Of a stretch of 64,000 bases of DNA, positions 3,530-39,779 are shown one piece after another. This stretch comes from Escherichia phage vB_EcoS_FFH_1. Position 1 is the stretch's first letter; each line of letters starts with the position of its first letter. A model generated the notes under the pieces. That model ran no database searches. It worked only from the letters and a program-made list of their open reading frames with translations, and was not told the DNA's origin. The stretch is from the sequence record KJ190157; one strand, 5' to 3'. A program made the translations under genes and the position numbers.

Positions 3530-3607
3530 TGGTGGCTCCCCGAGGATTCGAACCTACGTACCTTCCGGTTATGAGCCGGGTGCTCATACCATATGAGCTT
3601 GAGAACC
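3530..3607 (-). tRNA. tRNA with anticodon CAT (Met, fMet or Ile2 type); weak T-stem
   Basis: Anticodon loop CTCATAA, D-arm GCTC...GAGC, acceptor GGTTCTC/GGGAGCC with G-U pairs, CCA encoded. Confidence 0.55.
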
Positions 3608-4272: not shown

Positions 4273-4301
4273 ATTATACAGAGAATTTAGCATTCAAGCA
4301 A
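4273..4301 (-). promoter_or_regulatory. Conserved early promoter (TTGCTT-17-TATAAT)
   Basis: Plus attata 4273-4278 and aagcaa 4296-4301. Confidence 0.6.
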
Positions 4302-4417
4302 TCAAATTTTTTAACTTTTTAGAGGAAAATCATAGGGCACTTAAGGATAGCAGATAAGTGGTGAGGACCAAAATTTGTGACCCCACTAAAAATCCTGGGG
4401 CAATTTTTAAAGACCCC

Positions 4418-4446
4418 TTGACATTTTCGCTGGGGTAGTGTAAAGT
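4418..4446 (+). promoter_or_regulatory. Sigma70-type promoter with consensus -35 TTGACA (spacer 17, -10 TAAAGT)
   Basis: ttgacattttcgc at 4418-4430; the same 13-mer recurs at 33016; drives the antisense plus-strand cassette. Confidence 0.45.
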
Positions 4447-4509
4447 ATATGTTATGGATGAGTGATCAAATAGACACACATTTTCTATATACTAGGAGGT
4501 GTCAAAAAA

Positions 4510-5492
4510 TGACAGAAGAAGTAACTAAGAGTCCTGAGACCGTCGCTAGCGTTGCAGCAGAATTGCACCGTCACGAGGAATCAGATAAGAAAAAGTGGGA
4601 GAAGGTCAGAGCCTACGAAGAAAAACATCGTGAACACGATGATAAAGAAGATGATGATGAACATTGTCATAAATATGGAAAACATAAAATGCAAGAACCA
4701 GTAAACGTATTCACTAGTGGCTTCCCTGGCCTACTGGGTGGTTATCCAGCAAACGCAAGTGCTTTCGGTGGTGAAGGTATGGGACTATTCGGAGCTATCC
4801 TAATCGGTGCTCTATTAACAGGCGGATTCGGTGGTTTCGGTGGATTCGGCGGACGTGGTGTAGTTGGTGAAGGTACCGCAGTTGATGCAGTACTTCAGAA
4901 CCAAGATACCGCTAGTATTCTAGCAGCTATTAACACTACTCGTACAGAAGCTAACCAGGGTACTGGAGCTGTTTTAAGCGCAGTTAACAATGGTTTTAGC
5001 CAGACATCCCAAAACCAGAGCCGTGATACTCAGTCTGTACTGACTACGATCTATGGTACAGGTGCTAATCTGTCTAATCAGATCTGTCAGGAAACTCGCA
5101 ACGTTATTCAGGGTCAGTTCGATCTTTCTCGCCAGATTGATCAATCTTTCGCAGCTAATCAGATAGCTCGTGCACAAGATAAGTTTGATTCTGCACAGAT
5201 CGCTTTCCAGCAGACTTTACAAACTAATAACCAGTTTGCCGCTGTTCAGGCTCAGATGTGTGCTAATCAGAACTCTCTGGAACGTCAGATCGCTGAATGT
5301 TGCTGTGAACTTCAGACTGCGATCGCTGGTGTAACTACTGCGCGTATCCAGGATGAGTTAGATGCATGTCGTCTACGTGAAGCAATCGCTGCGGGTAACG
5401 GTGCTAACGGTCAGGTAATTAATCAAATCGCTGTAAGTCTTGGTGCTATAACTCAGACTCTGGCTGGTCTGCAGGCTAAACTGCCGGCTTAA
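4510..5492 (+). CDS. Low-complexity membrane protein: charged N-terminus, one hydrophobic helix followed by GGFGGFGGFGG, then an N/Q/T/S/A-rich C-terminal region
   Basis: Start taken at the ATG after GGAGG (4510); codon usage biased to GGT/GCT/CGT/CTG unlike neighbouring AT-rich genes; opposite strand to flanking genes. Confidence 0.5.
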
Positions 5493-5513
5493 TATTAAGG
5501 GGAGGAGCCCATT

Positions 5514-5930
5514 ATGAGTAAATATGGTTTTGTAAATAACGGACTTAATCAAAGTATGGGCTCCCAGCAGCCCCTGCCTGGTCTGGATAACCCCTACTTA
5601 CAACAATTGCAACAGCGTTTAGCAGAAGCGCAACAGATGCAGCAACAACTCCAGCAAAACCCTGGAAGTGTGAGTCCTATGCAAATGATGCAGCAAATGA
5701 GCGGGCAGTCGCAAATGCCTCAACAAATGCAGCAACAGGTGCCTCAGCAGCAAGTTCAGCAACAAACCCAACAACCGCAGGTTTCTGCGGAAGGACAGGC
5801 AGTACTAGCCCTTTTCGAAGACTTCGCAAAGACAGAGGATGGGAAACAGCTTGTATCACTTATGGGTAAGTTTAATAGCTTCTGCCAAAGCCAAGTTGCA
5901 AAAGCTCAAAATGGTGGTAATAACTCCTAA
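5514..5930 (+). CDS. Glutamine-rich low-complexity protein (138 aa)
   Basis: RBS GGGGAGGAG upstream; roughly 40 percent Q in the central region. Confidence 0.5.
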   Translation: MSKYGFVNNGLNQSMGSQQPLPGLDNPYLQQLQQRLAEAQQMQQQLQQNPGSVSPMQMMQQMSGQSQMPQQMQQQVPQQQVQQQTQQPQVSAEGQAVLALFEDFAKTEDGKQLVSLMGKFNSFCQSQVAKAQNGGNNS

Positions 5931-5939
5931 GGAGAAATT

Positions 5940-6134
5940 ATGTGTTGCAGAAAACCTGTTTCGTGCTGCCCAATGCCTGTAGCACGTTGTTGCTCTCCAG
6001 CAATGTTTACACAAATACCGGCGTTCAATCCCTTTGCCTTTAAGCCTACTCTTATCCTGCCCCCTAGAGTAGATTTTCAGTCAAGATTGGCCTCCCGTAT
6101 GGGTGGTTGCTGTACACCGAGAGTGTGGTTCTGA
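5940..6134 (+). CDS. Small cysteine-rich protein (64 aa; CC pairs)
   Basis: RBS AAGGAGAAA 5 nt upstream of ATG; followed by an intrinsic terminator. Confidence 0.4.
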   Translation: MCCRKPVSCCPMPVARCCSPAMFTQIPAFNPFAFKPTLILPPRVDFQSRLASRMGGCCTPRVWF

Positions 6135-6150
6135 AGAACCAAACAATAAA

Positions 6151-6186
6151 GCCCCTAGTCGAAAGACTTAGGGGCTTTTCTGTATT
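6151..6186 (+). terminator. Intrinsic terminator ending the plus-strand cassette
   Basis: GC hairpin gcccctag...ctaggggc followed by a T-run. Confidence 0.6.
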
Positions 6187-6190
6187 TAAG

Positions 6191-6230
6191 ATAAAAGAAA
6201 AGCCCTGCGCTCTCCAGGGAACGCAGGGCT
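6191..6230 (-). terminator. Intrinsic terminator downstream of the SPFH gene
   Basis: Hairpin agccctgcg...cgcagggct with an A-run on plus (U-run on the minus transcript). Confidence 0.5.
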
Positions 6231-6254
6231 TACTTCAGATGTTACATGCGGATA

Positions 6255-7202
6255 TTATTTATTACGCATATCCATGATCATTTGACCATCGTAGCCAGTA
6301 CCTACCACAGTCTGTGGTACACCACCTTGATATTTCTGAGCACGAATCATTTCGACTTCCAGTTGTTTCCAACGAATCATCTCAGGAGTAATGGTACGTT
6401 GCAGTGCGGCGTTAGCTTCAGCTTCTTTCTTAGCTGCGTACAGTTTAGCATCTGCGTCACGTTCATTAGCGATAGCTTGGTTGTTGCGAGCTTCACGATC
6501 TGCTTCTGCTTGTTTAACTTTTTGCTGTGCTTCCTGTTCAACACGAGCTAATTCAGCTTTAGCAGCATTAACCTGTTCTTCACGAACTTTGGTATTCTGT
6601 ACCTGTTCCATGATTACCGGTGGCAAAGTAATATCCTGAAGGAATACCTGCTTAACTGTGTAACCATATGGGCGTGCATACTCTTCAACTTCCTGTTGAA
6701 TTGCAGTTTGCAATTGAGCCTGAATTTTAGCATCAAACAAATCTTGTGCTTTAGGTACAGACTTACCAAACTCACGAATAGTAGACAGTAATTTTTCAGT
6801 TACATATTTGTCTAACGCTTGATCCTGAGTACCTGCGTTAATACGGTTAATTGGTGCCTTAGAACCATCAAACTGCAACATAACAGTCAGGTCAACAGTG
6901 GATTTAAACTTATCCTGGCTAGGAACCTGAAGTTTATCTAATTTTACAGCAATATCTTTTGTACTAAAAGTGTCGAAAGATGCAAATGGGTTTACAAGAT
7001 GGAAACCTGGTAATACTGGGTTAGGATCTACTTTACCCAGAAATGTTTGGGTTTTAACCGTACCATCAGAAACAATAGTATATGAATTAAAGGCTAGAAT
7101 CAAGCCTGCTAAACCAACTACAGCACCAATACCCCAACGTTTAATAGTACGAATTACTTTCTGCTCAGAAGTCAGTTCTTTCATATTTTTAGTATTAAAC
7201 AT
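6255..7202 (-). CDS. SPFH/band-7 (prohibitin/HflK-HflC-like) membrane protein
   Basis: N-terminal transmembrane helix, SPFH-like core, long coiled-coil A/E/Q/K-rich C-terminus; RBS AAGGAA. Confidence 0.65.
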   Translation of the reverse strand: MFNTKNMKELTSEQKVIRTIKRWGIGAVVGLAGLILAFNSYTIVSDGTVKTQTFLGKVDPNPVLPGFHLVNPFASFDTFSTKDIAVKLDKLQVPSQDKFKSTVDLTVMLQFDGSKAPINRINAGTQDQALDKYVTEKLLSTIREFGKSVPKAQDLFDAKIQAQLQTAIQQEVEEYARPYGYTVKQVFLQDITLPPVIMEQVQNTKVREEQVNAAKAELARVEQEAQQKVKQAEADREARNNQAIANERDADAKLYAAKKEAEANAALQRTITPEMIRWKQLEVEMIRAQKYQGGVPQTVVGTGYDGQMIMDMRNK

Positions 7203-7812: not shown

Positions 7813-7884
7813 TACCGACCGTAGGATTCGAACCTACATCTTCCACCAGTTACGGCTTGATAATACCAATTATACTAGGACGGC
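7813..7884 (-). tRNA. tRNA-like element or pseudo-tRNA; anticodon stem does not pair
   Basis: Good T-arm GTAGG-TTCGAAT-CCTAC and a 6 of 7 acceptor stem; no CCA encoded. Confidence 0.3.
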
Positions 7885-30456: not shown

Positions 30457-30700
30457 ACTAACTGATTTACTTAAAGATGGGGAAATAAAAACACTATATC
30501 GTAGAAGCTGGGATAACGATAATAACGGCTTAGTGTTACTAACTTTAGATGCTGACTCGGATGTAGCTACTCAGCATACCTGGGTAGCCGGTAACTATCC
30601 ATATAGCGAGGTTGTTTCATTAACAGTATGCGAAGCTATTGCAGATGATTGGGAGGTTGCCAGCATCGAGGATATGCTCGCTGTTGGCCTGGTGGAGTAA
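30449..30700 (+). CDS. Hypothetical protein (about 83 aa)
   Basis: GTG start with RBS AAGGAA; overlaps the previous stop. Confidence 0.4.
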   Translation: MSRLTDLLKDGEIKTLYRRSWDNDNNGLVLLTLDADSDVATQHTWVAGNYPYSEVVSLTVCEAIADDWEVASIEDMLAVGLVE

Positions 30701-30717
30701 CTACTTAAAAATTTCAG

Positions 30718-30746
30718 TTGCTTAATCCTACAATTCTTGATATAAT
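30718..30746 (+). promoter_or_regulatory. Conserved early promoter
   Basis: TTGCTT-17-TATAAT. Confidence 0.6.
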
Positions 30747-30803
30747 ATTCTCATAGTTTGAAAGAACTATTCTGTTTAATTCTTAATTAAGGAAATATAA
30801 AAT

Positions 30804-31214
30804 ATGACTACTCCAACTCAGTGGACTGATGAACTGTTCGAAAAAATGTCTTCCGAATACGTTGCTCGTATGGAGCAATTCCCAGAGGATGAACGTCCGG
30901 GTGTTAGCATGGAAATTGTTAGCGAAATTGCCCAGGAAAACGGTGTAACTCCGAACGGTTTTCGTATGAAGCTGACTAAAGCAGGTTTGTATATTAAGAA
31001 AGCTGCTGGTTCTACTTCTAAATCTAGCGCATCTACTGGAGAAAAAGCTTCTGGTGGTTCTCGTACCTCCAAAGCTCAAGCCCATGCCGACCTTCGCGCA
31101 GCATTCTCTGACGCTGGCTTAGCACCAGATTTTCTGGATGATGCAATTATCGACAAACTGACCGGTAAAGCGGCTGCTCATCTGGCAGAAGCAATCCGAG
31201 CTATCACTAAGTAA
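30804..31214 (+). CDS. Hypothetical protein (136 aa) with host-like codon usage
   Basis: RBS AAGGAAA; Ser/Ala/Gly-rich linker. Confidence 0.5.
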   Translation: MTTPTQWTDELFEKMSSEYVARMEQFPEDERPGVSMEIVSEIAQENGVTPNGFRMKLTKAGLYIKKAAGSTSKSSASTGEKASGGSRTSKAQAHADLRAAFSDAGLAPDFLDDAIIDKLTGKAAAHLAEAIRAITK

Positions 31215-31250
31215 TTTTTAGATAAATCCACCAACAAAAGGAACACAGTT

Positions 31251-31547
31251 ATGACCAAAGCTGAAATTATCGCACAATGTGAAAAATTTGGTGAGTTTTA
31301 TCTTCATTACGAGAAACTTCGTCAGAAAGGAACCACGTACCTTCAGGGTACGATGGAATTTGATCCAGCCCAAGATAAATATCTGGCTGAGCGTATTAAA
31401 CGTGAACGTATTCGTAAAGCGAAAGATGATGAGATCCTTGTCTTCTCTCGTACTAATGATAGCTTCCGTTTTATTCCTGTTGAGAAAGTCCGTCGTGTGA
31501 CTAGCCTCCAATCAGAGTTAGATCGTGCTTCTCCAGTAGGCCGATAA
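31251..31547 (+). CDS. Hypothetical protein (98 aa)
   Basis: RBS AAGGAA. Confidence 0.5.
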   Translation: MTKAEIIAQCEKFGEFYLHYEKLRQKGTTYLQGTMEFDPAQDKYLAERIKRERIRKAKDDEILVFSRTNDSFRFIPVEKVRRVTSLQSELDRASPVGR

Positions 31548-31557
31548 GAAACCAATT

Positions 31558-31586
31558 AGCCCCTATATGGGGCTTTTTGTGTATTT
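31558..31586 (+). terminator. Intrinsic terminator
   Basis: Hairpin agcccc-tatat-ggggct followed by ttttgtgtattt. Confidence 0.55.
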
Positions 31587-31597
31587 GGGATATGTAA

Positions 31598-31906
31598 ATG
31601 AGCGAACAGGTAAATCAAAACTATGAAGGACACGTTGATGACCAGTCCATCATACTTTGGGAGAAGGAGGGGGAACAAGTAAGATTAACAGTATCGGAAT
31701 TTCGTGGGAATCTATACATGGGTATTCGTTACTGGCTTCTTGATATTAATGATGAATGGTTTCCAACGAAATCTGGCTTCTCTTTTCCTTACACCCTAGA
31801 AACAACATCACAGCTTTTCTACGCGTTTACACAGATTCTTAGTGAATCTGAGGTTTTACATGAGGTACAGAAACGAGCTGAAGAACTCAAAGCCAAGAAT
31901 GCCTAG
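31598..31906 (+). CDS. Hypothetical protein (102 aa)
   Basis: ORF; terminator hairpin spans its stop codon. Confidence 0.45.
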   Translation: MSEQVNQNYEGHVDDQSIILWEKEGEQVRLTVSEFRGNLYMGIRYWLLDINDEWFPTKSGFSFPYTLETTSQLFYAFTQILSESEVLHEVQKRAEELKAKNA

Positions 31907-31933
31907 TTCTTGGCTTTTTCTTTATAAATGTAT

Positions 31934-31962
31934 TTGCTTTCAACTCAGTTTTGTTATATAAT
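31934..31962 (+). promoter_or_regulatory. Conserved early promoter upstream of the ligase N-terminal ORF
   Basis: TTGCTT-17-TATAAT. Confidence 0.6.
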
Positions 31963-31993
31963 ATTTATATAAATTGATGAGAGATACAAATAA

Positions 31994-32965
31994 ATGACTA
32001 ATGTAAAAAACTTTATTAAACGTTGCCAAGAAGCGTACTACCAGGGAATGTCTTTAATCTCTGACGAAGAATATGATCGTCTGATTAAAAGATTTCCGTT
32101 AGAAGAAGAGATCGGTCCTAAGGGCGATATTCCACATCTGTATCGTATGTATTCTTTACAGAAAGTTTATTATAATCGTGGAGATAAACCTCCGTTTAAC
32201 CCATTAGGTCAGGTAGAAACTGATAAGTTAGATGGTTGTGCGATTTCTCTGCTATATATTAATGGCGAATTTGTTCAAGCACTAACTCGTGGTAATGGTA
32301 TTCTAGGGAATGATGTCACAAGCAACGTAAGATTGCTGAACATTCCTAAAAAGATTTCCCAAAAAGTACCTACTCAAATCACTGGTGAAGTTCTAATTAC
32401 AAAAGAAGTAGAAAATAAACGTAACTTTGCCTCTGGTGCTATTAACCTCAAAGATAGTGATGATTTCGTACAACGTATCGGGGAAGGTGGTTTAATCTTT
32501 GTTGCATATGGTATCCAGTGTTCTGCTGAATCTGTAGGTATTACAGAAGCATATTTAAAAGATATGCTTTGGCTAGAGAATGAGAACTTCTTAACAGTTG
32601 TTAATGTACGTTCCTTCTTTAAATGGATTCCGACGGACGGTAAAGTTGTTCGTATTAATGACAACAACAAATTCTTCCGCGAAGGCTGGACTAATAAATT
32701 CCCTCGCGGGGCGTTCGCTATTAAAGAGGATGAAGAAGGCGAGATTACAACTCTTACTAAAGTTGAATGGCAGGTAGGGGCTTCTGGTAAAGTAACTCCA
32801 GTTGGTTATTTCGAACCGGTAATTATTGATGATGCTACAATTGTTAAAGCGACTCTTAATAACGTTGATTATATTAACTCTCTCTATCTAGAGATCGGTT
32901 GCCAGATTCGAGTGATTCGTGCTGGTGGTGTAATCCCGTGTATAGTAGAGCGAGTATACGATTAA
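31994..32965 (+). CDS. NAD-dependent DNA ligase, N-terminal part (Ia and adenylation domains plus OB)
   Basis: ISDEEYDRL (Ia domain) and the KxDG adenylation motif TDKLDGCA. Confidence 0.75.
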   Translation: MTNVKNFIKRCQEAYYQGMSLISDEEYDRLIKRFPLEEEIGPKGDIPHLYRMYSLQKVYYNRGDKPPFNPLGQVETDKLDGCAISLLYINGEFVQALTRGNGILGNDVTSNVRLLNIPKKISQKVPTQITGEVLITKEVENKRNFASGAINLKDSDDFVQRIGEGGLIFVAYGIQCSAESVGITEAYLKDMLWLENENFLTVVNVRSFFKWIPTDGKVVRINDNNKFFREGWTNKFPRGAFAIKEDEEGEITTLTKVEWQVGASGKVTPVGYFEPVIIDDATIVKATLNNVDYINSLYLEIGCQIRVIRAGGVIPCIVERVYD

Positions 32966-33015
32966 TACATAACCCTTTGCTACCCATCTACCATATCGGA
33001 ATTATAAAGTGGTTA

Positions 33016-33044
33016 TTGACATTTTCGCCGCTTAGGTATATACT
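33016..33044 (+). promoter_or_regulatory. Sigma70-type promoter TTGACA-17-TATACT inside the ligase split
   Basis: Shares the 13-mer ttgacattttcgc with the promoter at 4418. Confidence 0.45.
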
Positions 33045-33108
33045 ATTATCATTCAGTTGAGGGATAGAAAGTTATGGCGAGGGTAAGCAAAGTTAGTTAA
33101 AATTGTAG

Positions 33109-33137
33109 TTGCTAAATGCTTAAATACTTGCTATAAT
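33109..33137 (+). promoter_or_regulatory. Conserved early promoter upstream of the ligase C-terminal ORF
   Basis: TTGCTA-17-TATAAT. Confidence 0.6.
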
Positions 33138-33164
33138 ATTTATATAAATTGATAAGGAAGAAAT

Positions 33165-33947
33165 TTGATGAAAATCGAAATTCCAACACAATGTCCCTCT
33201 TGTGGTTCTAAGCTAGATCTTGTCAACGGACAATTATTCTGTCGTAATAAGTCCAACTGTCCAGCGCAATCAAGCAAGTTAATTGAGAACTTCTGTTCAA
33301 AAATGAAGTTAAAGGGCTTTGGCCCAAAAACTATTGAGAAGCTGGAGCTGACGAAGATTTCAGAACTATTTTACCTAACCGAAGAAGATTTGGTTAGAGT
33401 CGTGGGTAGCAAGGTTGCCGCTAAGTTAATTAGCGAATTAAATACTAAAGTTCGCGGAGACATTGACTTTGGTTCAGTTCTCGGTTCTTTAGGAATCCCT
33501 CTAATTGGAGAGGTTGCAGCAAAGAAATTATCCCAAAATTGCACTAGCTTCCACGATGTGAAGGCTGACGGCAAGGCTGGAGAAAATTACAAAGCCTGGC
33601 TAAATTCCCCACAAGGCAAGGATGTTATTGAACTACCGTGGAAATTTTCAACTGGTATTAAGGGCACTAAAGCTGACGTCATCATTACAGATGAATTAGT
33701 TGCCCAGCCAAATGGAATCGCGGTATGTATTACCGGATCTTTGCAAGATTTTGCAAATCGAACGGATGCAACAAACTATTTAGAAGGTCTAGGGTATACG
33801 GTTAAGAAATCCGTTACTAAAGACGTCAAATACCTAATCTGTGAGGATGAATCAAAACGTTCTTCCTCATCTTATAAGAAAGCCGAAACGAATGGGATAG
33901 AAATCCTGTCGATTAAAGAACTATTGGAGAAAAATAATAATGTCTAA
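33165..33947 (+). CDS. NAD-dependent DNA ligase, C-terminal part (Zn-finger, HhH, BRCT-like)
   Basis: Cys4 zinc finger CPSCGS...CRNKSNCPAQ, HhH-like FGPKTIEKL, C-terminal BRCT-like region. Confidence 0.7.
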   Translation: MMKIEIPTQCPSCGSKLDLVNGQLFCRNKSNCPAQSSKLIENFCSKMKLKGFGPKTIEKLELTKISELFYLTEEDLVRVVGSKVAAKLISELNTKVRGDIDFGSVLGSLGIPLIGEVAAKKLSQNCTSFHDVKADGKAGENYKAWLNSPQGKDVIELPWKFSTGIKGTKADVIITDELVAQPNGIAVCITGSLQDFANRTDATNYLEGLGYTVKKSVTKDVKYLICEDESKRSSSSYKKAETNGIEILSIKELLEKNNNV

Positions 33948-34707
33948 ACTGAACTGGAACGTAGAAGGTGTAACCGAGTCTCTGAAAGCAAAAGCCACTG
34001 CTCTGGGTGTTGCTGTAATCTCTCAAGAACAAGTAGCTGCTATCGCTGCTGAACTGGCTGCTGAAACTGGTAAAGACGTTACAGCTCGCTCTGTTGGCTC
34101 TAAACTGCGTAAAGAAGGTTTTGAAGTACAGAAAGCTAACGAAGTACAGAAATCCCCGTGGACTCCTGAGCAGGAAGCTGAACTGGTTGATTTCCTGAAC
34201 GCTCATGCTGGTCAGTATACCTATGCTGAAATCGCTGCTGCTGTAGCTGGTGGTCAGTTCGGTGCTAAACAGGTACAGGGTAAGATCCTGAGTCTGGAAA
34301 TGACCGCTTCTGTTAAACCAACTGAAAAAGCTGCTGCTGTTCGTTCCTTCACTCCTGATGAAGAAACTGATTTTGTTAATCAGGTTGTTGCTGGTGCTAC
34401 TATTGAAGCTATCGCTGCTCACTTCGGTCGTAATATCAAGCAGATCCGTGGTAAAGCTCTGAGCCTGCTTCGTGAAGGTCGTATCGCTGCTATGCCGGTA
34501 CAGGAAACCTCAAGTGCTAAAACTCGTGAAGATCTGTTAGAAGGTCTGGATCTGGCTAACATGACTGTTGCTGAGATCGCTGAGAAAACTGGTAAATCTG
34601 AGCGCGGTGTTAAATCTATGCTGTCTCGTCGTGGTCTGGTTGCTAAGGACTATGATGGTGCTGCTAAGCGTGCTAAACTGGATGCAAAAGCTGCGGCTGC
34701 TGAATAA
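33940..34707 (+). CDS. Protein with three tandem helix-turn-helix-like repeats and host-like codon usage
   Basis: Repeats TYAEIAAAVAG...LSLEM, TIEAIAAHFGRN...LSLLREG, TVAEIAEKTGKS...LSRRGL; strong GCT/CTG/GGT codon bias. Confidence 0.5.
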   Translation: MSKLNWNVEGVTESLKAKATALGVAVISQEQVAAIAAELAAETGKDVTARSVGSKLRKEGFEVQKANEVQKSPWTPEQEAELVDFLNAHAGQYTYAEIAAAVAGGQFGAKQVQGKILSLEMTASVKPTEKAAAVRSFTPDEETDFVNQVVAGATIEAIAAHFGRNIKQIRGKALSLLREGRIAAMPVQETSSAKTREDLLEGLDLANMTVAEIAEKTGKSERGVKSMLSRRGLVAKDYDGAAKRAKLDAKAAAAE

Positions 34708-34738
34708 TCTGGTAAATTAAACCTAAGGGGAGGGGGCT

Positions 34739-36262
34739 ATGCTCCTTCCCCTTTTTGCATTTAGAAGGCACGAAAGCGTGCAAAGGAGAATGACCTTGTT
34801 TAACGTGCAAGCTGTAGTGTTGAAGATGCTTCTAGCTTCCGAACAGAAGCAGATAGCATTGGAAACATTCTCAAAACTGCATAAAGATCATTTTAATGAC
34901 GCTTTCTCCTCAATTTACCAAGCCGTCCAGAATTATTATAAAAAATATAACACAATGCCGTCCATTGACGCACTGATGCTTGAGGCTAATAGGAACGCCC
35001 GCCTTTCTCAAGCTCTAGTCGTTTTAGCTAACACTCAAATTCCAGAAGTTAGCATGGAACAGGCACTTGAAGTCCTAGAGGCCGAGTATACACAGGATTT
35101 ATTCCTGAAGCTTCTAGAAACAGACGTGCTTCAAGATTTAACAATGCTGGATCAGGGAGAAATTCTTAACCGAGTTGCCTCCCTTCACTTAAAATTAGAA
35201 GAGAAAGTAACGAATACTGGAAAAGTATTCAACGCAGATAACATGCGTATTTTCCAGAGAGAAGAAGATACCAAACTGAACTTAATCGCTCTTGGTATTT
35301 GTAATGAGTTCGACGCTCAAATTGGTTTAGCTCGCACAGAAACGTTACTGCTTGGTGGTTGGCGTGGTACTGGTAAATCCATTATCTGTTCAAACATACA
35401 GGTTCAGCAATATTTGAATGGAGATATTGCTCCATACTTCTCAATTGAGATGAAAGAACATGAAGTATTTAGACGTAATCTAGCCATGTTAGCTGGTGTA
35501 TCCGCACTAGCAATGCGTAATAATACTCTAGAAGGTGCAGCTCTGTTGAGATTAGCCAGAACTAGAGCTAGGATGTTTAACGGTGGTGAAGAGCTTTTCG
35601 ATAACTTCGTTAAACAGTACACAATGGCTAAGATGAGTGATTTCTACGATATGGAGAGTAAGCTAATAGAAGGATATGAGCTACATACTCCTATGATTAT
35701 TGTTTATGATCCTGAGCTGTCTATTACAACAGTTGACGTAGAATTAAATAAATTAGTTGCTAGATATGGAGATAAAGTTACAGTAGCTTTACTGGACTAT
35801 ATTAACCAAACCCGACTTCCAGACTCTAAAACCATTGATATGTATGACTGGAAAGAACAGATGGTTGTTAGCTCGTCTTTCAAATCTATCTGCCAGAAAC
35901 ATAACGTGGCTGGTGTAGCTCCTTACCAGATCGATCAAGATGGTAGAACACGTATGTCAAAGGGGATTCTTGATTCCGCAGACATGGCTGCTAATCTTAA
36001 TGCTGCAAAAGCTGATAATGGTCAAGGTGCTATTATGTTTGACTTCGTTAAGACTCGTTCTTCTGATAGCGTGAAGTTTATGCCTAAGATGAACTGGGAA
36101 ACTCTGCGAATGGATAATACAACTAACCTAGCAATGGAAGATATATCTCAAATGGAAGCTGAGTTCGTTATCCCTATTGAGAAGGATAAGCCGGCTCAAC
36201 CTAAACGTGCTAAGAAAGACAAAACTGAAAATTCAACAGGTGAACAGGCCAGCGATATATGA
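34739..36262 (+). CDS. DnaB-like replicative helicase (RecA-fold ATPase); start codon uncertain
   Basis: Walker A-like LLLGGWRGTGKS; sits directly upstream of primase; possible TTG start near 34797. Confidence 0.55.
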   Translation: MLLPLFAFRRHESVQRRMTLFNVQAVVLKMLLASEQKQIALETFSKLHKDHFNDAFSSIYQAVQNYYKKYNTMPSIDALMLEANRNARLSQALVVLANTQIPEVSMEQALEVLEAEYTQDLFLKLLETDVLQDLTMLDQGEILNRVASLHLKLEEKVTNTGKVFNADNMRIFQREEDTKLNLIALGICNEFDAQIGLARTETLLLGGWRGTGKSIICSNIQVQQYLNGDIAPYFSIEMKEHEVFRRNLAMLAGVSALAMRNNTLEGAALLRLARTRARMFNGGEELFDNFVKQYTMAKMSDFYDMESKLIEGYELHTPMIIVYDPELSITTVDVELNKLVARYGDKVTVALLDYINQTRLPDSKTIDMYDWKEQMVVSSSFKSICQKHNVAGVAPYQIDQDGRTRMSKGILDSADMAANLNAAKADNGQGAIMFDFVKTRSSDSVKFMPKMNWETLRMDNTTNLAMEDISQMEAEFVIPIEKDKPAQPKRAKKDKTENSTGEQASDI

Positions 36263-37149
36263 GTAGAATAACAGAACTACTTGATCTGAAAGGCATTGAA
36301 TATAAAGACACAGGTGGGGACATCCTCATCTGTTGTCTCAATCCAGATCATGACGATAAACACCCAAGTTTGCGTATTGATCCTGAAACAGGTATTATGC
36401 ACTGCTTGAGTTGTGGCTTCGGTAAAGGTATACCGAGCATTTACCATTATTTTAATGAGACTCAGTACCGACAGTCTCCAAGACTATCACAGGTACGTAA
36501 AAAGATTTCAGAGATTAGGAATGGATCAACGAATCTTGCAATTCCTGAATCTGCTTACCTTTTCGAAGGTGATTTCCGAGGTATAAGTTCTAAGACCTTG
36601 AAGAAATATTTTGCTTTCCAACACCAAGCAGACTGGGAAGGCAGAATTGTATTCCCAATCACAGATGCTGTTGGACGCAATATCCTATTTTTGGGTCGTT
36701 CTATAAACAGTTCTGCCCCTCCTAAATACTTAGTAAAACCAAAACAAGTTTCACCGCCAATTTTTCCTGTACGATATAATACTCCAGTTCTTATTCTAGT
36801 TGAAGGCATCTTTGATATGCTGAACCTAGAGGATAATGGTATAGACTATGCTTCTTGCTGCTTTGGTACACATCAGTTTACTTCGGATAACATTGCAGAT
36901 AAGTTCAGTCCTTATATTATTGCTGGGGTAAAAGTTGTTGTTATCTTACTAGATAATGATGCTTCTGGTAATAAAGCTGCACAAGCATTGGCTAAGCTAA
37001 TTCGTACAAAAACGCGTTTAACACCTGTAGTTGCTAACTTCCTCCTGCCTGAAGGCAAAGATCCAGGTGATTTAAACAAAGATGAAATTGATATGTTAGC
37101 AAAACGTATTGAAATTTTAGTTGCTGAATCGCTTAAAGATTTGGTATAA
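36259..37149 (+). CDS. DNA primase (zinc-binding plus Toprim, DnaG-like)
   Basis: Zn motif CLNPDHDDKHPS...HCLSCG and Toprim acidic motif LLDNDASGNKAA. Confidence 0.8.
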   Translation: MSRITELLDLKGIEYKDTGGDILICCLNPDHDDKHPSLRIDPETGIMHCLSCGFGKGIPSIYHYFNETQYRQSPRLSQVRKKISEIRNGSTNLAIPESAYLFEGDFRGISSKTLKKYFAFQHQADWEGRIVFPITDAVGRNILFLGRSINSSAPPKYLVKPKQVSPPIFPVRYNTPVLILVEGIFDMLNLEDNGIDYASCCFGTHQFTSDNIADKFSPYIIAGVKVVVILLDNDASGNKAAQALAKLIRTKTRLTPVVANFLLPEGKDPGDLNKDEIDMLAKRIEILVAESLKDLV

Positions 37150-37211
37150 TATATTGGTAAGTTAGAGAAGAAACACTGAAGTTATACTTACTTACCAAGA
37201 GGAGATTAAAT

Positions 37212-39779
37212 TTGAAAATCGCAGTAGTTGATAAAGCTCTAAATAACACTCGTTACGATAAACATTTCCAGCTATACGGCGAGGAAGTTGATGTATTCCA
37301 TATGTGTAACGAGAAGTTATCTGGTCGTTTGCTTAAAAAGCACATTACTATTGGAACACCAGAAAACCCATTTGATCCGAATGATTATGATTTTGTTATA
37401 CTAGTAGGTGCTGAACCTTTCCTGTATTTCGCAGGTAAGAAAGGCATTGGTGACTATACTGGTAAACGTGTAGAGTATAATGGATATGCTAACTGGATTG
37501 CGAGTATCAGCCCAGCCCAGTTACACTTTAAGCCTGAAATGAAACCAGTTTTCGATGCAACAGTAGAGAATATCCACGATATTATCAATGGTCGTGAGAA
37601 GATTGCAAAAGCTGGTGATTACCGTCCTATTACTGACCCTGACGAGGCGGAAGAATATATCAAGATGGTGTATAATATGGTTATCGGACCTGTCGCATTC
37701 GACTCCGAAACCTCAGCACTATACTGTCGAGATGGTTATCTGCTTGGTGTTTCTATATCTCACCAAGAGTATCAGGGTGTATATATCGATTCTGATTGTC
37801 TCACAGAGGTTGCAGTATATTATCTCCAGAAAATTCTGGATAGTGAAAACCACACTATTGTTTTTCACAACTTGAAGTTTGATATGCACTTTTATAAGTA
37901 CCATCTGGGACTTACTTTTGATAAGGCACATAAAGAACGTAGGCTCCACGATACCATGTTGCAGCACTACGTTCTAGATGAACGTCGTGGTACTCATGGC
38001 TTGAAATCTCTAGCAATGAAGTATACCGATATGGGTGACTATGACTTTGAACTAGATAAGTTCAAGGAGGATTACTGCAAAGCACATAAAATCAAGAAAG
38101 AAGATTTCACATATGATTTAATTCCGTTTGATATTATGTGGCCTTACGCTGCAAAAGATACCGATGCCACCATACGTTTGCACAATTTCTTCTTACCAAA
38201 AATTGAGAAGAATGAAAAACTTTGCAGTCTGTATTATGATGTTCTAATGCCTGGTTGTGTATTTCTCCAGCGTGTTGAGGATCGTGGTGTACCTATTTCT
38301 ATTGATCGTTTAAAAGAAGCTCAGTACCAGTTAACCCATAATCTGAATAAAGCTCGTGAAAAGCTGTATACTTATCCAGAAGTCGTTCAGCTAGAGAAAG
38401 ATCAGAACGAAGCGTTTAACCCAAACTCTGTTAAGCAGCTACGTGTTCTTCTGTTTGATTATGTTGGCTTAACTCCAACAGGTAAATTGACGGATACTGG
38501 AGCAGACTCTACAGATGCAGAAGCTCTGAACGAACTGTCTACGCAGCATCCAATTGCTAAAACTCTGCTAGAGATTCGTAAGCTAACTAAGCTGATCTCT
38601 ACTTACGTTGAGAAGATTCTTCTGAGCATTGATGCTGATGGTTGCATTCGTACTGGCTTCCATGAACACATGACTACTTCTGGTCGTCTGAGTTCTTCTG
38701 GTAAACTGAACCTGCAACAGTTACCTCGTGATGAATCTATTATCAAGGGTTGTGTAGTAGCTCCTCCAGGGTATCGTGTAATCGCATGGGACTTAACAAC
38801 TGCGGAAGTTTATTATGCTGCTGTTCTATCTGGTGATAGAAATATGCAACAAGTATTTATCAACATGAGAAATGAACCTGATAAATACCCTGACTTCCAC
38901 TCTAACATCGCCCACATGGTATTTAAACTGCAATGTGAACCTCGTGATGTTAAGAAGCTGTTCCCAGCTCTACGTCAAGCAGCTAAGGCAATTACCTTTG
39001 GTATTTTGTATGGTTCTGGCCCGGCTAAAGTAGCACATTCTGTTAACGAAGCATTGCTAGAACAAGCAGCCAAAACTGGTGAACCGTTTGTTGAATGTAC
39101 TGTTGCAGATGCTAAAGAGTACATTGAAACTTACTTCGGTCAGTTCCCGCAGCTTAAGCGTTGGATTGATAAGTGCCACGATCAGATCAAGAATCATGGA
39201 TTTATCTATAGTCACTTTGGTCGTAAGCGTCGTCTGCACAATATCCACTCCGAAGACCGTGGTGTTCAGGGTGAAGAAATTCGTTCTGGATTTAACGCAA
39301 TCATTCAGTCTGCTTCCTCTGATAGCCTTCTTTTAGGTGCTGTAGATGCAGATAATGAGATCATTTCTCTTGGCCTGGAACAAGAGATGAAGATTGTTAT
39401 GCTAGTTCACGACTCCGTAGTTGCTATTGTTCGTGAAGACTTGATTGATCAATACAATGAAATCCTGATTCGTAATATTCAGAAAGACCGTGGTATCAGT
39501 ATTCCTGGCTGTCCGATTGGTATTGATTCAGATTCTGAAGCTGGAGGTTCTCGTGACTACTCTTGTGGTAAGATGAAGAAACAGCACCCATCAATCGCTT
39601 GTATTGATGATGATGAATATACTCATTATGTCAAGGGTGTATTACTTGATGCAGAATTCGAGTATAAGAAACTAGCTGCAATGGATAAAGAGCATCCAGA
39701 TCATAGCAAATACAAGGATGATAAGTTTATTGCTGTATGTAAAGATTTGGATAACGTGAGAAGGATTCTCGGTGCTTGA
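37212..39779 (+). CDS. Family A DNA polymerase with 3'-5' exonuclease domain
   Basis: Exo motifs FDSETS and YAAKD; Pol motif B RQAAKAITFGILYG; motif C VHDS; 855 aa matches the T5 polymerase length as recalled. Confidence 0.9.
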   Translation: MKIAVVDKALNNTRYDKHFQLYGEEVDVFHMCNEKLSGRLLKKHITIGTPENPFDPNDYDFVILVGAEPFLYFAGKKGIGDYTGKRVEYNGYANWIASISPAQLHFKPEMKPVFDATVENIHDIINGREKIAKAGDYRPITDPDEAEEYIKMVYNMVIGPVAFDSETSALYCRDGYLLGVSISHQEYQGVYIDSDCLTEVAVYYLQKILDSENHTIVFHNLKFDMHFYKYHLGLTFDKAHKERRLHDTMLQHYVLDERRGTHGLKSLAMKYTDMGDYDFELDKFKEDYCKAHKIKKEDFTYDLIPFDIMWPYAAKDTDATIRLHNFFLPKIEKNEKLCSLYYDVLMPGCVFLQRVEDRGVPISIDRLKEAQYQLTHNLNKAREKLYTYPEVVQLEKDQNEAFNPNSVKQLRVLLFDYVGLTPTGKLTDTGADSTDAEALNELSTQHPIAKTLLEIRKLTKLISTYVEKILLSIDADGCIRTGFHEHMTTSGRLSSSGKLNLQQLPRDESIIKGCVVAPPGYRVIAWDLTTAEVYYAAVLSGDRNMQQVFINMRNEPDKYPDFHSNIAHMVFKLQCEPRDVKKLFPALRQAAKAITFGILYGSGPAKVAHSVNEALLEQAAKTGEPFVECTVADAKEYIETYFGQFPQLKRWIDKCHDQIKNHGFIYSHFGRKRRLHNIHSEDRGVQGEEIRSGFNAIIQSASSDSLLLGAVDADNEIISLGLEQEMKIVMLVHDSVVAIVREDLIDQYNEILIRNIQKDRGISIPGCPIGIDSDSEAGGSRDYSCGKMKKQHPSIACIDDDEYTHYVKGVLLDAEFEYKKLAAMDKEHPDHSKYKDDKFIAVCKDLDNVRRILGA

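What the first reader, a model, noticed from the sequence alone, without database searches (positions are those of the whole stretch)
4418..6186. Antisense three-gene cassette of low-complexity proteins with its own promoter and terminator
Three plus-strand ORFs sit inside a minus-strand early/tRNA region. Upstream is a consensus -35 TTGACA promoter; downstream is a strong intrinsic terminator. Products are a membrane protein with a GGFGGFGGFGG tract and an N/Q-rich tail, a roughly 40 percent glutamine protein, and a 64 aa Cys-rich peptide. Codon usage is host-like, unlike the AT-rich neighbours. No characterised phage family that I can name has this architecture; it could be a moron, a membrane/envelope-targeting module or a superinfection-exclusion system.
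Basis: seen in the sequence. Interest (0 to 1): 0.8.

Follow-up and report, generated by a model that had tools for sequence, protein, structure and literature searches.

The report
Mobile three-gene moron in T5-like phage
This is a real, self-contained accessory gene cassette with its own promoter and terminator; it moves as a unit between unrelated phages and encodes three odd proteins of unknown function, and phage T5 grows in the laboratory without it.

Summary
The window is a T5-like phage, about 98.5% identical to SP15. At 4353-6198 it carries a plus-strand unit: a sigma-70-type promoter (TTGACA-17-TAAAGT), three tightly spaced genes, and a strong terminator. Gene A is 327 aa, B is 138 aa and C is 64 aa. 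T5 already annotates the same unit as promoter P12, T5.077, T5.078, an unnamed CDS and an efficient terminator.

It is a moron by comparative test. Gostya9 and Bas33 lack it, and the indel edges bracket promoter to terminator exactly. Phage rutana carries NadR/PnuC genes in the same slot. Only about half of T5-like records have gene A.

The same A-B-C trio also sits in N4-like, two lambdoid (between Q and the lysis genes), KPP23-like and other backbones. In those it usually has a divergent Zn-ribbon gene upstream.

A has a charged or His-rich head, a Gly-zipper hydrophobic segment and a roughly 150-200-residue continuous helix with an invariant ECCC motif. That motif defines a larger uncharacterised viral superfamily. 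B is a helix, a Q/P linker and a small domain. C is an MCC-initiated peptide with vicinal Cys pairs.

No Pfam, NCBIfam, PADLOC or PDB match was found. The T5Mos deletion shows the cassette is dispensable. Function is unproven; my best guess is an envelope-anchored accessory complex. The claim of host-like codon usage is not supported.

The parts
4353..6198 (+). Extent of the inserted unit (moron) relative to T5-like genomes that lack it
   Evidence: Alignment with Gostya9's empty site: homology ends at window 4352 and resumes at 6199, and Gostya9 has 46 nt in between. Bas33 also has an empty site.
4418..4446 (+). Sigma-70-type promoter, TTGACA-17 nt-TAAAGT, equivalent to T5 promoter P12
   Evidence: Scores 10 of 12 in the scan. 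Coincides with the 'promoter P12' feature of AY543070. Identical hexamers and spacing occur in the distant relative L004.
4509..5492 (+). Gene A (T5.077 homologue), 327 aa. It has a charged/His-rich N-terminal helix, an EPVNVF motif, a Gly-zipper hydrophobic segment (aa 90-115), and a long continuous helix with hendecad (11-residue repeat) periodicity. It also carries an invariant ECCC motif (aa 263-266) and an invariant C-terminal NGQxINQIAVSLGAIxQTLAxLQxK tail.
   Evidence: (alignment and invariant columns). PHROG 8119, function unknown. pN/pS 0.17-0.23. Fop 0.68.
5514..5930 (+). Gene B (T5.078 homologue), 138 aa. It has an N-terminal helix YLQQLQQRLAEAQ, a variable Q/P-rich linker, and a conserved C-terminal domain LALFEEFAKTEDGKQLVxxxGKFNxFCQS.
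   Evidence: PHROG 7894, function unknown. pN/pS 0.05-0.18.
5940..6134 (+). Gene C (the unnamed third CDS of T5), 64 aa. It starts MCC, has four vicinal Cys pairs, and is 16% Pro and 9% Phe. It has no signal peptide or lipobox.
   Evidence: (present in L001, L002 and all of L011-L028). Counterparts exist in KPP23, L004, L005, L006/7, L034 and L035. It is not annotated in SP15 RefSeq.
6148..6185 (+). Intrinsic terminator of the cassette: a 13-bp GC-rich stem with one bulge, a GAAA loop and a U-tract
   Evidence: dG -23.2 kcal/mol, z -7.2. T5 annotates an 'efficient bidirectional rho-independent transcription terminator' here.

Best explanation
SHOWN. The region is a moron: an autonomous, horizontally mobile accessory transcription unit made of a promoter, three translationally close-packed genes and a terminator. 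It occupies a hypervariable slot between the SPFH gene and the Toprim gene of T5-like phages. The same A-B-C trio has been captured by at least five other phage backbones. The unit is not needed for lytic growth in the laboratory.

INFERRED. The three products work together as one complex.
- A is made in large amounts, judged from its optimal-codon bias. It oligomerises into a coiled-coil rod about 20-30 nm long. The rod is held at the inner membrane by A's glycine-zipper hydrophobic segment, with the charged, His-rich head in the cytoplasm.
- B has the shape of a tether: a coiled-coil helix, a flexible Q/P linker and a small conserved domain.
- C is a small peptide rich in Cys and Pro. Its vicinal thiols, together with the invariant CCC of A and the invariant Cys of B, cross-link or metal-bridge the assembly.

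My committed guess for the role is an envelope-associated accessory structure. It would be made early in infection, or from a prophage, and would alter the infected cell's envelope to the phage's advantage. The most likely benefit is exclusion of, or competition with, other phages. This role is not shown by any result here.
For: Moron status:
- The cassette has its own promoter and terminator.
- The indel edges at 4352/6199 bracket the unit.
- Empty sites exist in Gostya9 and Bas33, and NadR/PnuC is alternative cargo in rutana.
- A is found in 221 phage records, against 430 records with the flanking SPFH gene at >=90% identity.

Mobility of the trio as a unit:
- KPP23-like Pseudomonas phage.
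- A Gamaleyavirus-like N4-type phage; none of its GenBank relatives appeared among the tblastn hits for A.
- Two different lambdoid phages, in both cases between the Q antiterminator and the holin/lysozyme/Rz genes.
- L035 and the distant T5-like L004.

Dispensability:
- The T5Mos deletion 30661-38625 removes P12 and the first 562 nt of T5.077, yet the phage is viable (PMC11464382). I validated that the paper's coordinates match AY543070.

A complex rather than three independent genes:
- Intergenic gaps are 21 nt and 9 nt.
- The trio is co-inherited across synonymous-site saturation, with pS about 0.9-1.2.

Rod:
- AlphaFold2 predicts one uninterrupted helix for aa 195-327 (pLDDT 78, pTM 0.33) and for 174-324 in the full-length model.
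- Hydrophobic periodicity is 3.67 residues, not 3.5 (power 48.6 against 1.4 for aa 130-230).

Anchor: KD19 is 1.72 over 26 uncharged residues.

Abundance: Fop 0.68, the 96th percentile in the window.

Invariant Cys in A (C251, C264-266) and in B (C124); C starts Met-Cys in six of the seven backbones.
Against: - No experiment or homology links the proteins to exclusion or to the envelope.
- The hydrophobic segment is only a marginal TM helix. It shrinks to 10-16 uncharged residues in the lambdoid, KPP23 and N4-like versions.
- B and C have no export signal. If they dock on the most conserved part of A, its C-terminal tail, the rod must be cytoplasmic. That would undercut a periplasm-spanning model.
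- The periodicity signal is modest: 22 of 500 shuffles reach it over aa 130-327.
- AlphaFold2 on the full-length protein has low confidence (pLDDT 47).
- No PADLOC match.
- Strictly lytic carriers (T5-like, N4-like) show that prophage-style lysogenic conversion cannot be the whole story.
Confidence: 0.35

Rival explanations
1. A cytoplasmic Cys/His-based metal- or redox-linked scaffold. In this reading A is not membrane-spanning; its hydrophobic Gly-rich patch is an oligomerisation or monotopic element. A, B, C and the Zn-ribbon protein would form a soluble or membrane-peripheral filament or lattice. That lattice would bind soft metals or sense redox state, or would organise some step of infection.
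For: - B, C and the Zn-ribbon protein all lack signal peptides.
- A and B carry invariant Cys, and C is rich in vicinal Cys pairs.
- The head of A is His-rich, for example HHYHHHHHEH in Epseptimavirus versions and HNHDHDEEHE in remote relatives.
- The hydrophobic segment is too short for a TM helix in several members.
- The nearly invariant C-terminal tail of A is specific to the trio-linked proteins. It is therefore a candidate docking site for the unexported B and C.
Against: - In the window's own version the segment passes a classical TM threshold (KD19 1.72, 26 uncharged residues).
- C is not metallothionein-like in detail: it is 12.5% Cys with 7 aromatic residues.
- No metal-binding family match was found.
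Confidence: 0.2
2. A host-takeover or anti-defence module. The complex would bind and neutralise a host envelope or cytoplasmic factor, for example a membrane-bound defence effector or a stress-response component, instead of acting on other phages.
For: - Accessory, sporadically distributed early-region cassettes in virulent phages often have such roles (general knowledge).
- The tRNA region of T5 already holds one anti-defence determinant, tRNA-Lys against PARIS (PMC11464382).
- The cassette is dispensable on laboratory K-12 strains, as expected if its target is absent there.
Against: - No similarity to any known anti-defence protein or fold.
- A three-protein, low-complexity, apparently abundant structural assembly is atypical for such inhibitors.
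Confidence: 0.15
3. A lysis accessory resembling a spanin pair. A would act like an i-spanin (a membrane-anchored coiled coil with Cys) and C like a proline-rich o-spanin, fusing or disrupting the membranes at lysis.
For: There is an architectural resemblance. A has an N-proximal hydrophobic anchor followed by a long helical, Cys-bearing domain. C is about 60 aa with 16% Pro, as Rz1 is (Rz/Rz1 features from established knowledge).
Against: - C has no signal peptide or lipobox.
- There is no PF03245 match.
- T5-like phages already have a separate holin/endolysin/i- and o-spanin cassette (PMC4342426, PMC11664485).
- Both lambdoid carriers encode a PF03245 Rz next door, on the other strand.
- The cassette has an early-type sigma-70 promoter.
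- A carries a 90-aa cytoplasmic head that spanins do not have.
Confidence: 0.04
4. Not a functional unit: chance ORFs or decaying low-complexity remnants.
For: The low-complexity composition is compatible with this, and there are no database family matches.
Against: - Purifying selection acts on all three ORFs.
- The trio is retained across at least seven backbones at saturated synonymous divergence.
- Invariant motifs are present.
- A profile search finds about 100 remote relatives sharing the ECCC domain.
Confidence: 0.01

Closest known systems
Phage morons (for example lambda bor and lom, HK97 gp15, and the stx genes in the Q-S slot of lambdoid phages)
   Same: An autonomous promoter-gene(s)-terminator unit inserted between conserved genes. 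It shows presence/absence polymorphism among otherwise syntenic genomes, higher GC than its surroundings, and dispensability. In two lambdoid phages it sits in the same Q-to-lysis interval that carries stx.
   Different: The cargo is a co-inherited three-protein set (four with the Zn-ribbon gene) with no known function. It is carried mostly by strictly virulent phages (T5-like, N4-like), and in the lambdoids it is oriented against late transcription.
Two-component spanins Rz/Rz1
   Same: A membrane-proximal anchor plus a long helical Cys-containing domain (A), and a roughly 60-aa proline-rich partner (C).
   Different: There is no lipobox on C, no Pfam Rz match, and no location in a lysis cassette. 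The carriers already encode canonical spanins. A has a 90-aa cytoplasmic head, and a third Q-rich protein is present.
Superinfection-exclusion membrane proteins (T4 Imm and Sp, HK97 gp15, P22 SieA, lactococcal Sie2009)
   Same: A small accessory unit expressed early or from a prophage, predicted to be anchored in the inner membrane, dispensable and sporadically distributed.
   Different: Those are single small proteins. There is no sequence similarity, and no exclusion phenotype has been tested for this cassette.
Exchangeable apolipoproteins, perilipins and LEA proteins (11- and 22-residue amphipathic repeat helices)
   Same: A shows 3.67-residue hydrophobic periodicity and a visible 22-residue repeat pattern. 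One remote relative (P0174) gives a sub-threshold Pfam Apolipoprotein match (E 3e-10, 40.5 bits against a cut-off of 90).
   Different: The window protein itself has no such Pfam match. The resemblance is one of repeat type, not homology.
Keratin with keratin-associated and cornified-envelope proteins (an analogy of composition only, from my own knowledge)
   Same: A Gly-loop (GGFGGFGG) segment next to a coiled-coil rod (A), a Gln-rich partner (B), and a small protein with CC-x-P motifs that starts MCC (C).
   Different: These are eukaryotic proteins with no homology. The cytoplasmic redox state in bacteria would not support disulfide cross-linking. This is offered only as a lead for a 'cross-linked structural material' idea.
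Tether proteins such as ZipA, TolA and TonB
   Same: The layout of anchor or helix, extended P/Q-rich or helical spacer, and small conserved C-terminal binding domain fits B, and fits A overall.
   Different: No sequence or profile similarity was detected.

Membership tests
Phage moron | Own promoter upstream of the cargo | tested here: met
   TTGACA-17-TAAAGT at 4418-4446. Annotated as P12 in T5. Conserved in L004. Activity itself was not measured here.
Phage moron | Own factor-independent terminator downstream | tested here: met
   6148-6185, dG -23.2 kcal/mol, z -7.2. Terminators also follow gene C in L006 and KPP23.
Phage moron | Present in some and absent from other closely related, otherwise syntenic genomes, with indel edges around the unit | tested here: met
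   Gostya9 and Bas33 have empty sites. The homology break lies at 4352/6199. Rutana has NadR/PnuC in the slot.
Phage moron | Nucleotide composition differs from the flanking genes | tested here: met
   GC 0.46-0.49 against a window median of 0.395 (92nd-100th percentile). GC3 is only modestly raised, so much of the shift comes from amino-acid composition.
Phage moron | Transcribed independently of the neighbouring operons (for example in a lysogen, or early in infection) | not testable with these tools
   This needs RNA-seq or transcription-start mapping. The one T5-like data set I located uses Bas33, which lacks the cassette (PMC13250531).
Two-component spanin (Rz/Rz1) | The o-spanin is an outer-membrane lipoprotein with a signal peptide and a lipobox Cys | tested here: not met
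   C starts MCC with no hydrophobic h-region or lipobox in any of the seven backbones.
Two-component spanin (Rz/Rz1) | The i-spanin matches PF03245, or is a type II protein with an N-terminal TM domain and a periplasmic coiled coil, encoded in the lysis cassette | tested here: not met
   No PF03245 hit. The anchor lies 90 aa from the N-terminus. The cassette is outside the lysis cassette. The carriers have their own Rz (PMC4342426, PMC11664485).
Known anti-phage defence systems (PADLOC-DB) | Profile match to a defence-system protein | tested here: not met
   No match for A, B or C at E <= 1.
Superinfection-exclusion proteins | Blocks DNA entry or adsorption of a second phage | not testable with these tools
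   This family is defined by phenotype, and there is no shared sequence signature to test.
Integral (bitopic) inner-membrane protein | A hydrophobic segment long enough to span the bilayer, conserved across the family | tested here: inconclusive
   The window version has KD19 1.72 and 26 uncharged residues. The lambdoid, KPP23 and N4-like versions have only 10-16 uncharged residues and KD19 of 1.3-1.46.
Apolipoprotein A1/A4/E (PF01442) | Pfam match above the gathering score | tested here: not met
   No hit for the window protein. The remote relative P0174 scores 40.5 bits against a cut-off of 90. Only the 11-residue periodicity is shared.
Metallothionein-like peptide (for C) | Very high Cys content with few or no aromatic residues (my own knowledge of the class) | tested here: not met
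   C is 12.5% Cys with 6 Phe and 1 Trp. Metal binding as such was not tested.

The most novel reading that the evidence does not exclude
The cassette is the T5 copy of a previously unrecognised, promiscuously mobile four-gene phage module: a divergent Zn-ribbon regulator plus A, B and C. The module would build a new kind of intracellular or periplasm-spanning structure in infected bacteria. That structure would be a thiol- or metal-cross-linked coiled-coil lattice, functionally reminiscent of intermediate filaments with their Cys-rich cross-linkers. It would be founded on the 'ECCC' helical domain, which defines a large uncharacterised viral protein superfamily.
Probability: 0.15. Interest if true: 0.8.

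Novelty: new member of a known kind. Interest (0 to 1): 0.45.

Why it matters
T5 is a model phage, and these three genes have stood as 'hypothetical' since the 2004 annotation. This work adds two things. First, they form a discrete mobile unit that selection keeps intact while moving it between T5-like, N4-like, lambdoid and Pseudomonas siphophage genomes. That pattern argues for a portable, host-directed or competitor-directed function. Second, A belongs to a much larger viral 'ECCC' domain superfamily that has no Pfam model, no structure and no literature.

Natural carriers and non-carriers already exist in the BASEL collection (Bas32 has the cassette, Bas33 lacks it), and T5Mos is a ready-made promoter/5'-deletion mutant. 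The function is therefore cheaply testable. If it proves to be an exclusion or envelope-remodelling device it would add a new multi-protein type to that class. If not, it is one more moron of unknown role.

Tried and rejected
- Family searches. Pfam, NCBIfam, PHROGs and PADLOC scans of A, B and C gave only function-unknown PHROGs 8119 and 7894.
- Solved structures. PDB sequence-profile searches with the A, B and ECCC-domain alignments found nothing at E <= 1.
- AlphaFold2, full-length A. Confidence was too low to use (pLDDT 47).
- AlphaFold2, A residues 195-327. The model is a single 128-residue helix (pLDDT 78). Foldseek against the PDB returned no match, as expected for a lone helix.
- Rfam on the cassette gave only sub-threshold noise. 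The 5' UTR fold is not better than shuffles (z -0.47).
- Spanin hypothesis: rejected (no lipobox, and the carriers have their own spanins).
- 'Host-like codon usage, recent host origin': rejected because of GC3, and because no relatives turned up in three searches:
  - a pattern scan of 185,579 GTDB species genomes, which used only two narrow peptide patterns;
  - E. coli complete genomes, by megablast with the lambdoid version only;
  - plasmids.
- Profile search seeded with the ECCC domain, to obtain named relatives: only 7 unnamed metagenomic proteins.
- Literature. Searches for T5.077/078/079 and T5p07x found nothing. No pangenome paper describing the slot was found. The Bas33 transcriptome/proteome paper is not usable because Bas33 lacks the cassette.
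- Solo remote relatives (L008-L010) have no B-like or C-like neighbours, so they gave no functional context.
Full report
WHAT IS THERE

The window is a T5-like phage of the genus Tequintavirus. The 2-kb region is 98.5% identical to Escherichia phage SP15, and 349 phage records match it. The cassette lies inside a minus-strand block of tRNA genes and small ORFs. It contains three plus-strand ORFs:
- A is 4449..5492. Its probable start is ATG 4509, 8 nt after AGGAGG, which gives 327 aa.
- B is 5514..5930 (138 aa).
- C is 5940..6134 (64 aa).

The gaps between the genes are 21 and 9 nt, and each holds a Shine-Dalgarno sequence. Upstream lies TTGACA-17 nt-TAAAGT at 4418-4446. Downstream, at 6148-6185, is a bulged GC-rich hairpin followed by a U-tract. 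Its dG is -23.2 kcal/mol and z is -7.2. This hairpin sits back to back with the terminator of the convergent SPFH (Band 7 family) gene at 6231-6200.

The promoter scan is not enriched over shuffles. Three things make this particular site credible: its consensus -35 hexamer, its identity in a distant relative (L004), and its coincidence with 'promoter P12' in T5 record AY543070. That record also lists T5.077, T5.078, an unnamed third CDS and an 'efficient bidirectional rho-independent transcription terminator'.

B is 28% Gln overall and 50% in its central 60 residues. The 'host-like codon usage' claim fails. GC is high, 0.46-0.49, the 92nd-100th percentile of 51 window ORFs. GC3, however, is only 0.31-0.40, so much of the shift comes from Ala/Gly/Gln/Pro/Cys content. 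Only A is enriched in E. coli optimal codons (Fop 0.68, 96th percentile; the optimal-codon list is from my own knowledge). That pattern fits a highly expressed phage gene better than a recent host import.

IT IS A MORON, SHOWN BY COMPARISON

The flanking SPFH gene occurs at >=90% identity in 430 phage records. Gene A occurs in only 221. Three states of the slot were seen:
- In Gostya9, SPFH sits directly next to the Toprim gene. Gostya9's notes equate those genes with DT57C genes 58 and 57.
- Bas33 (HildyBeyeler) has the same empty arrangement.
- The Epseptimavirus rutana has NadR-like and PnuC-like genes in the same slot.

Aligning Gostya9's empty site to the window shows homology ending at 4352 and resuming at 6199. 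The indel is thus exactly promoter through terminator. It leaves the SPFH terminator with the backbone. T5 and BF23 do carry the cassette.

THE TRIO TRAVELS AS A UNIT BETWEEN UNRELATED PHAGES

Homologues of A at 36-45% identity lie on phage-sized metagenomic contigs. In each case they are followed by a B homologue and an MC-initiated, CC-rich peptide ORF (one starts MSC):
- L004, a distant T5-like phage.
- L005, a Gamaleyavirus-like N4-type phage with vRNAP upstream. None of its GenBank relatives appeared among the tblastn hits for A.
- L006/L007 and L034, two different lambdoid phages. In both the unit sits between the Q antiterminator and the holin/lysozyme/Rz genes, on the opposite strand. 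This is the interval that carries stx in Stx phages.
- L035.
- The cultured Pseudomonas siphophage KPP23, ORF074-072.

Synonymous sites between these versions are saturated (pS about 0.9-1.2), while pN/pS stays at 0.3-0.5. Within T5-likes pN/pS is 0.05-0.23 for A and B, and 0.08 for C against an Epseptimavirus (these are approximate counts). C is intact in every T5-like locus inspected.

In five non-T5 backbones a 48-67-aa Zn-ribbon gene lies divergently, 80-110 bp upstream of A. Its pattern is CxxC-x6-CxxC ... CxPxCRxRK plus a basic tail. The same small gene also occurs alone in other phages. T5-likes lack it and have the consensus-like promoter instead.

No relatives were found in a pattern scan of GTDB species genomes, in E. 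coli complete genomes (near-identity search with the lambdoid version only) or in plasmids. These absences are only as strong as those search modes.

THE PROTEINS

None matches Pfam, NCBIfam, PADLOC or any PDB sequence. PHROGs 8119 and 7894 have unknown function.

Protein A, from the family alignment, has five parts:
- a conserved N-terminal helix, VAAELxRHExxDKK;
- a variable acidic or His-rich stretch;
- an EPVNVFTNG motif;
- a Gly-zipper hydrophobic segment;
- a long Q/N/A/S/T-rich helical region with invariant C251, an invariant ECCC at 263-266, the motif DELDxxRL, and an almost invariant tail NGQxINQIAVSLGAIxQTLAxLQxK.

The hydrophobic segment has a Kyte-Doolittle hydropathy over a 19-residue window (KD19) of 1.72 across 26 uncharged residues in the window version. 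In the lambdoid, KPP23 and N4-like versions it has only 10-16 uncharged residues. Membrane spanning is therefore plausible here but not secure for the family.

AlphaFold2 gives low confidence for the whole protein (pLDDT 47; helix 174-324). For residues 195-327 it gives one uninterrupted 128-residue helix (pLDDT 78, pTM 0.33). A lone helix of about 19 nm implies oligomeric coiled-coil packing. Hydrophobic periodicity in aa 130-230 is 3.67 residues, an 11-residue (hendecad) repeat, with power 48.6 against 1.4 at 3.5. Significance is modest over aa 130-327, where 22 of 500 shuffles reach it.

An exhaustive profile search found only five close full-length representatives. It also found about 100 remote hits, 75 of which carry the CCC motif. 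These share a roughly 70-aa domain...AAIQLEAxKNxxxLxxQLAECCCELKExI...RLRDxL.... They often also have the Gly-rich hydrophobic segment and a His-rich head. All come from unannotated metagenomic contigs; the longest run 38-99 kb, but many are only 1-3 kb. None has a Pfam match above threshold, and those inspected have no B or C neighbours.

Protein B has an N-terminal helix, a variable Q/P linker and a conserved C-terminal domain with one invariant Cys.

Protein C varies greatly in sequence but always has several CC doublets and is rich in Pro and Phe. It starts Met-Cys in six of the seven backbones. It has no signal peptide or lipobox.

DISPENSABILITY

T5Mos carries the deletion 30661-38625 and is viable (PMC11464382). 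The paper's coordinates match AY543070: its fragment 31885-32870 contains tRNA-Val, -Lys, -fMet and -Pro. The deletion therefore removes P12 (37954-38028) and the first 562 nt of T5.077 (38064-39029).

HOW IT MOST LIKELY WORKS

Shown: this is an autonomous, mobile, dispensable accessory unit under purifying selection.

Inferred: the three products form one complex. This follows from tight gene spacing and co-inheritance. A is abundant and oligomerises into a long coiled-coil rod, tethered by its Gly-zipper segment to the inner membrane with the charged head in the cytoplasm. B has a tether-like layout. The vicinal thiols of C, the CCC of A and the single Cys of B suggest thiol- or metal-mediated linkage.

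I commit, at about one chance in three, to an envelope-associated accessory structure that benefits the phage in competition, that is, in exclusion or envelope conversion. The grounds are that this is what small anchored moron products in both lytic and temperate phages usually do, and that the lambdoid copies occupy a classic conversion slot.

The main rival (0.2) is a cytoplasmic Cys/His metal- or redox-linked scaffold. It is favoured by the lack of export signals on B, C and the Zn-ribbon protein, and by the weak hydrophobic segment in several members. An anti-defence or host-takeover role (0.15) cannot be separated from these by sequence.

A spanin-like role is rejected. C has no lipobox and there is no PF03245 match. 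T5-like phages have their own holin/endolysin/spanin cassette (PMC4342426, PMC11664485), and both lambdoid carriers encode Rz next door.

COMPARISON WITH KNOWN SYSTEMS AND NOVELTY

As a genetic element it meets every testable criterion of a moron. Its cargo belongs to no described family. Four resemblances concern architecture or composition, not homology:
- spanins;
- single-protein exclusion factors;
- 11-mer repeat apolipoprotein-like helices;
- keratin with its Cys-rich associated proteins (composition only).

I file it as a new member of a known kind (a moron), with uncharacterised cargo. What appears to be new is the recognition of the trio as a unit shared across phage families, with the Zn-ribbon gene making a quartet, and of the wider ECCC superfamily. 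My literature searches found no mention of either.

VERDICT

The codon-usage argument is wrong, and the function is still open. Interest is moderate at 0.45. It is cheaply testable because natural carriers, non-carriers and a deletion mutant already exist, but at present it is one more conserved hypothetical cassette.

Noticed in passing
L003 4266-4412(-), L005 5756-5911(-), L006/L007 5716-5919(-), L034 4744-4917(-), L035 4759-4914(-): A small Zn-ribbon gene (CxxC-x6-CxxC...CxPxCRxRK plus a basic tail) lies divergently, 80-110 bp upstream of gene A, in five non-T5 backbones. It is absent from T5-likes. It also occurs alone in Pollock gp80, Sucellus, P400 and Segz_1. It could be a regulator or a fourth subunit.
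   Followed up: partly
L006 about 5957-5980 and L034 about 4955-4978 (Zn-ribbon/A intergenic region): The near-perfect palindrome GGTGCTAAtaCTTAGCA(C/A)C is conserved between the two lambdoid versions. It lies between the divergent Zn-ribbon gene and gene A and could be an operator or a 5'-UTR hairpin.
   Followed up: no
L003 5936-6118 (KPP23); L001 6640-6834 (SP15); B homologues in several records: Three annotation problems. KPP23 ORF072 is annotated in the wrong frame (5938-6132) and so misses the MCC peptide. SP15 RefSeq does not annotate gene C at all. B is labelled 'cAMP-dependent protein kinase catalytic subunit' in several records, which is probably a low-complexity artefact. The SPFH neighbour is labelled 'lipoprotein'.
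   Followed up: partly
window 4294-4352 / 6199-6254; L030 4446-6912: The interval between the SPFH and Toprim genes is a hypervariable cargo slot in T5-like phages. It is empty in Gostya9 and Bas33, holds the A-B-C cassette here, and holds NadR-like, PnuC-like and one more gene in rutana. Some Epseptimaviruses (100268_sal2) seem to carry both cargoes.
   Followed up: partly
window 3533-3607(-) and 7813-7884(-): Rfam finds two tRNA genes above the gathering score that ARAGORN did not report. The first corresponds to the tRNA-Met/Ile2(CAU) annotated in SP15 and T5.
   Followed up: partly
whole window; 6207-6211(-): The motif RGCGC, the T5 nick-site consensus according to the AY543070 annotation, is strongly under-represented: 42 sites against 102 +/- 12 in shuffles. 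One copy lies in the SPFH terminator next to the cassette, where T5 annotates a major single-strand interruption.
   Followed up: no
proteins P0152-P0252 (remote hits); L008-L010: There is a large uncharacterised viral 'ECCC' superfamily with the motif QLAECCCELKEKI...RLRDxL, and 75 of 105 hits carry CCC. Some members are up to 685 aa, with apolipoprotein-like repeats (P0174) or repeated xERNG units (P0166, P0227). Members have no Pfam model and are not accompanied by B or C.
   Followed up: partly
window 6255-7202(-): The SPFH/Band 7 gene next to the cassette is shared at 60-78% amino-acid identity with large Klebsiella, Cronobacter, Citrobacter and Aeromonas phages (about 160-180 kb). This points to separate horizontal movement of that gene.
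   Followed up: no
window 33940-34707(+) and 30804-31214(+): These two ORFs have the highest optimal-codon fractions in the window (Fop 0.85 and 0.75). They are presumably very highly expressed late genes and were not examined.
   Followed up: no
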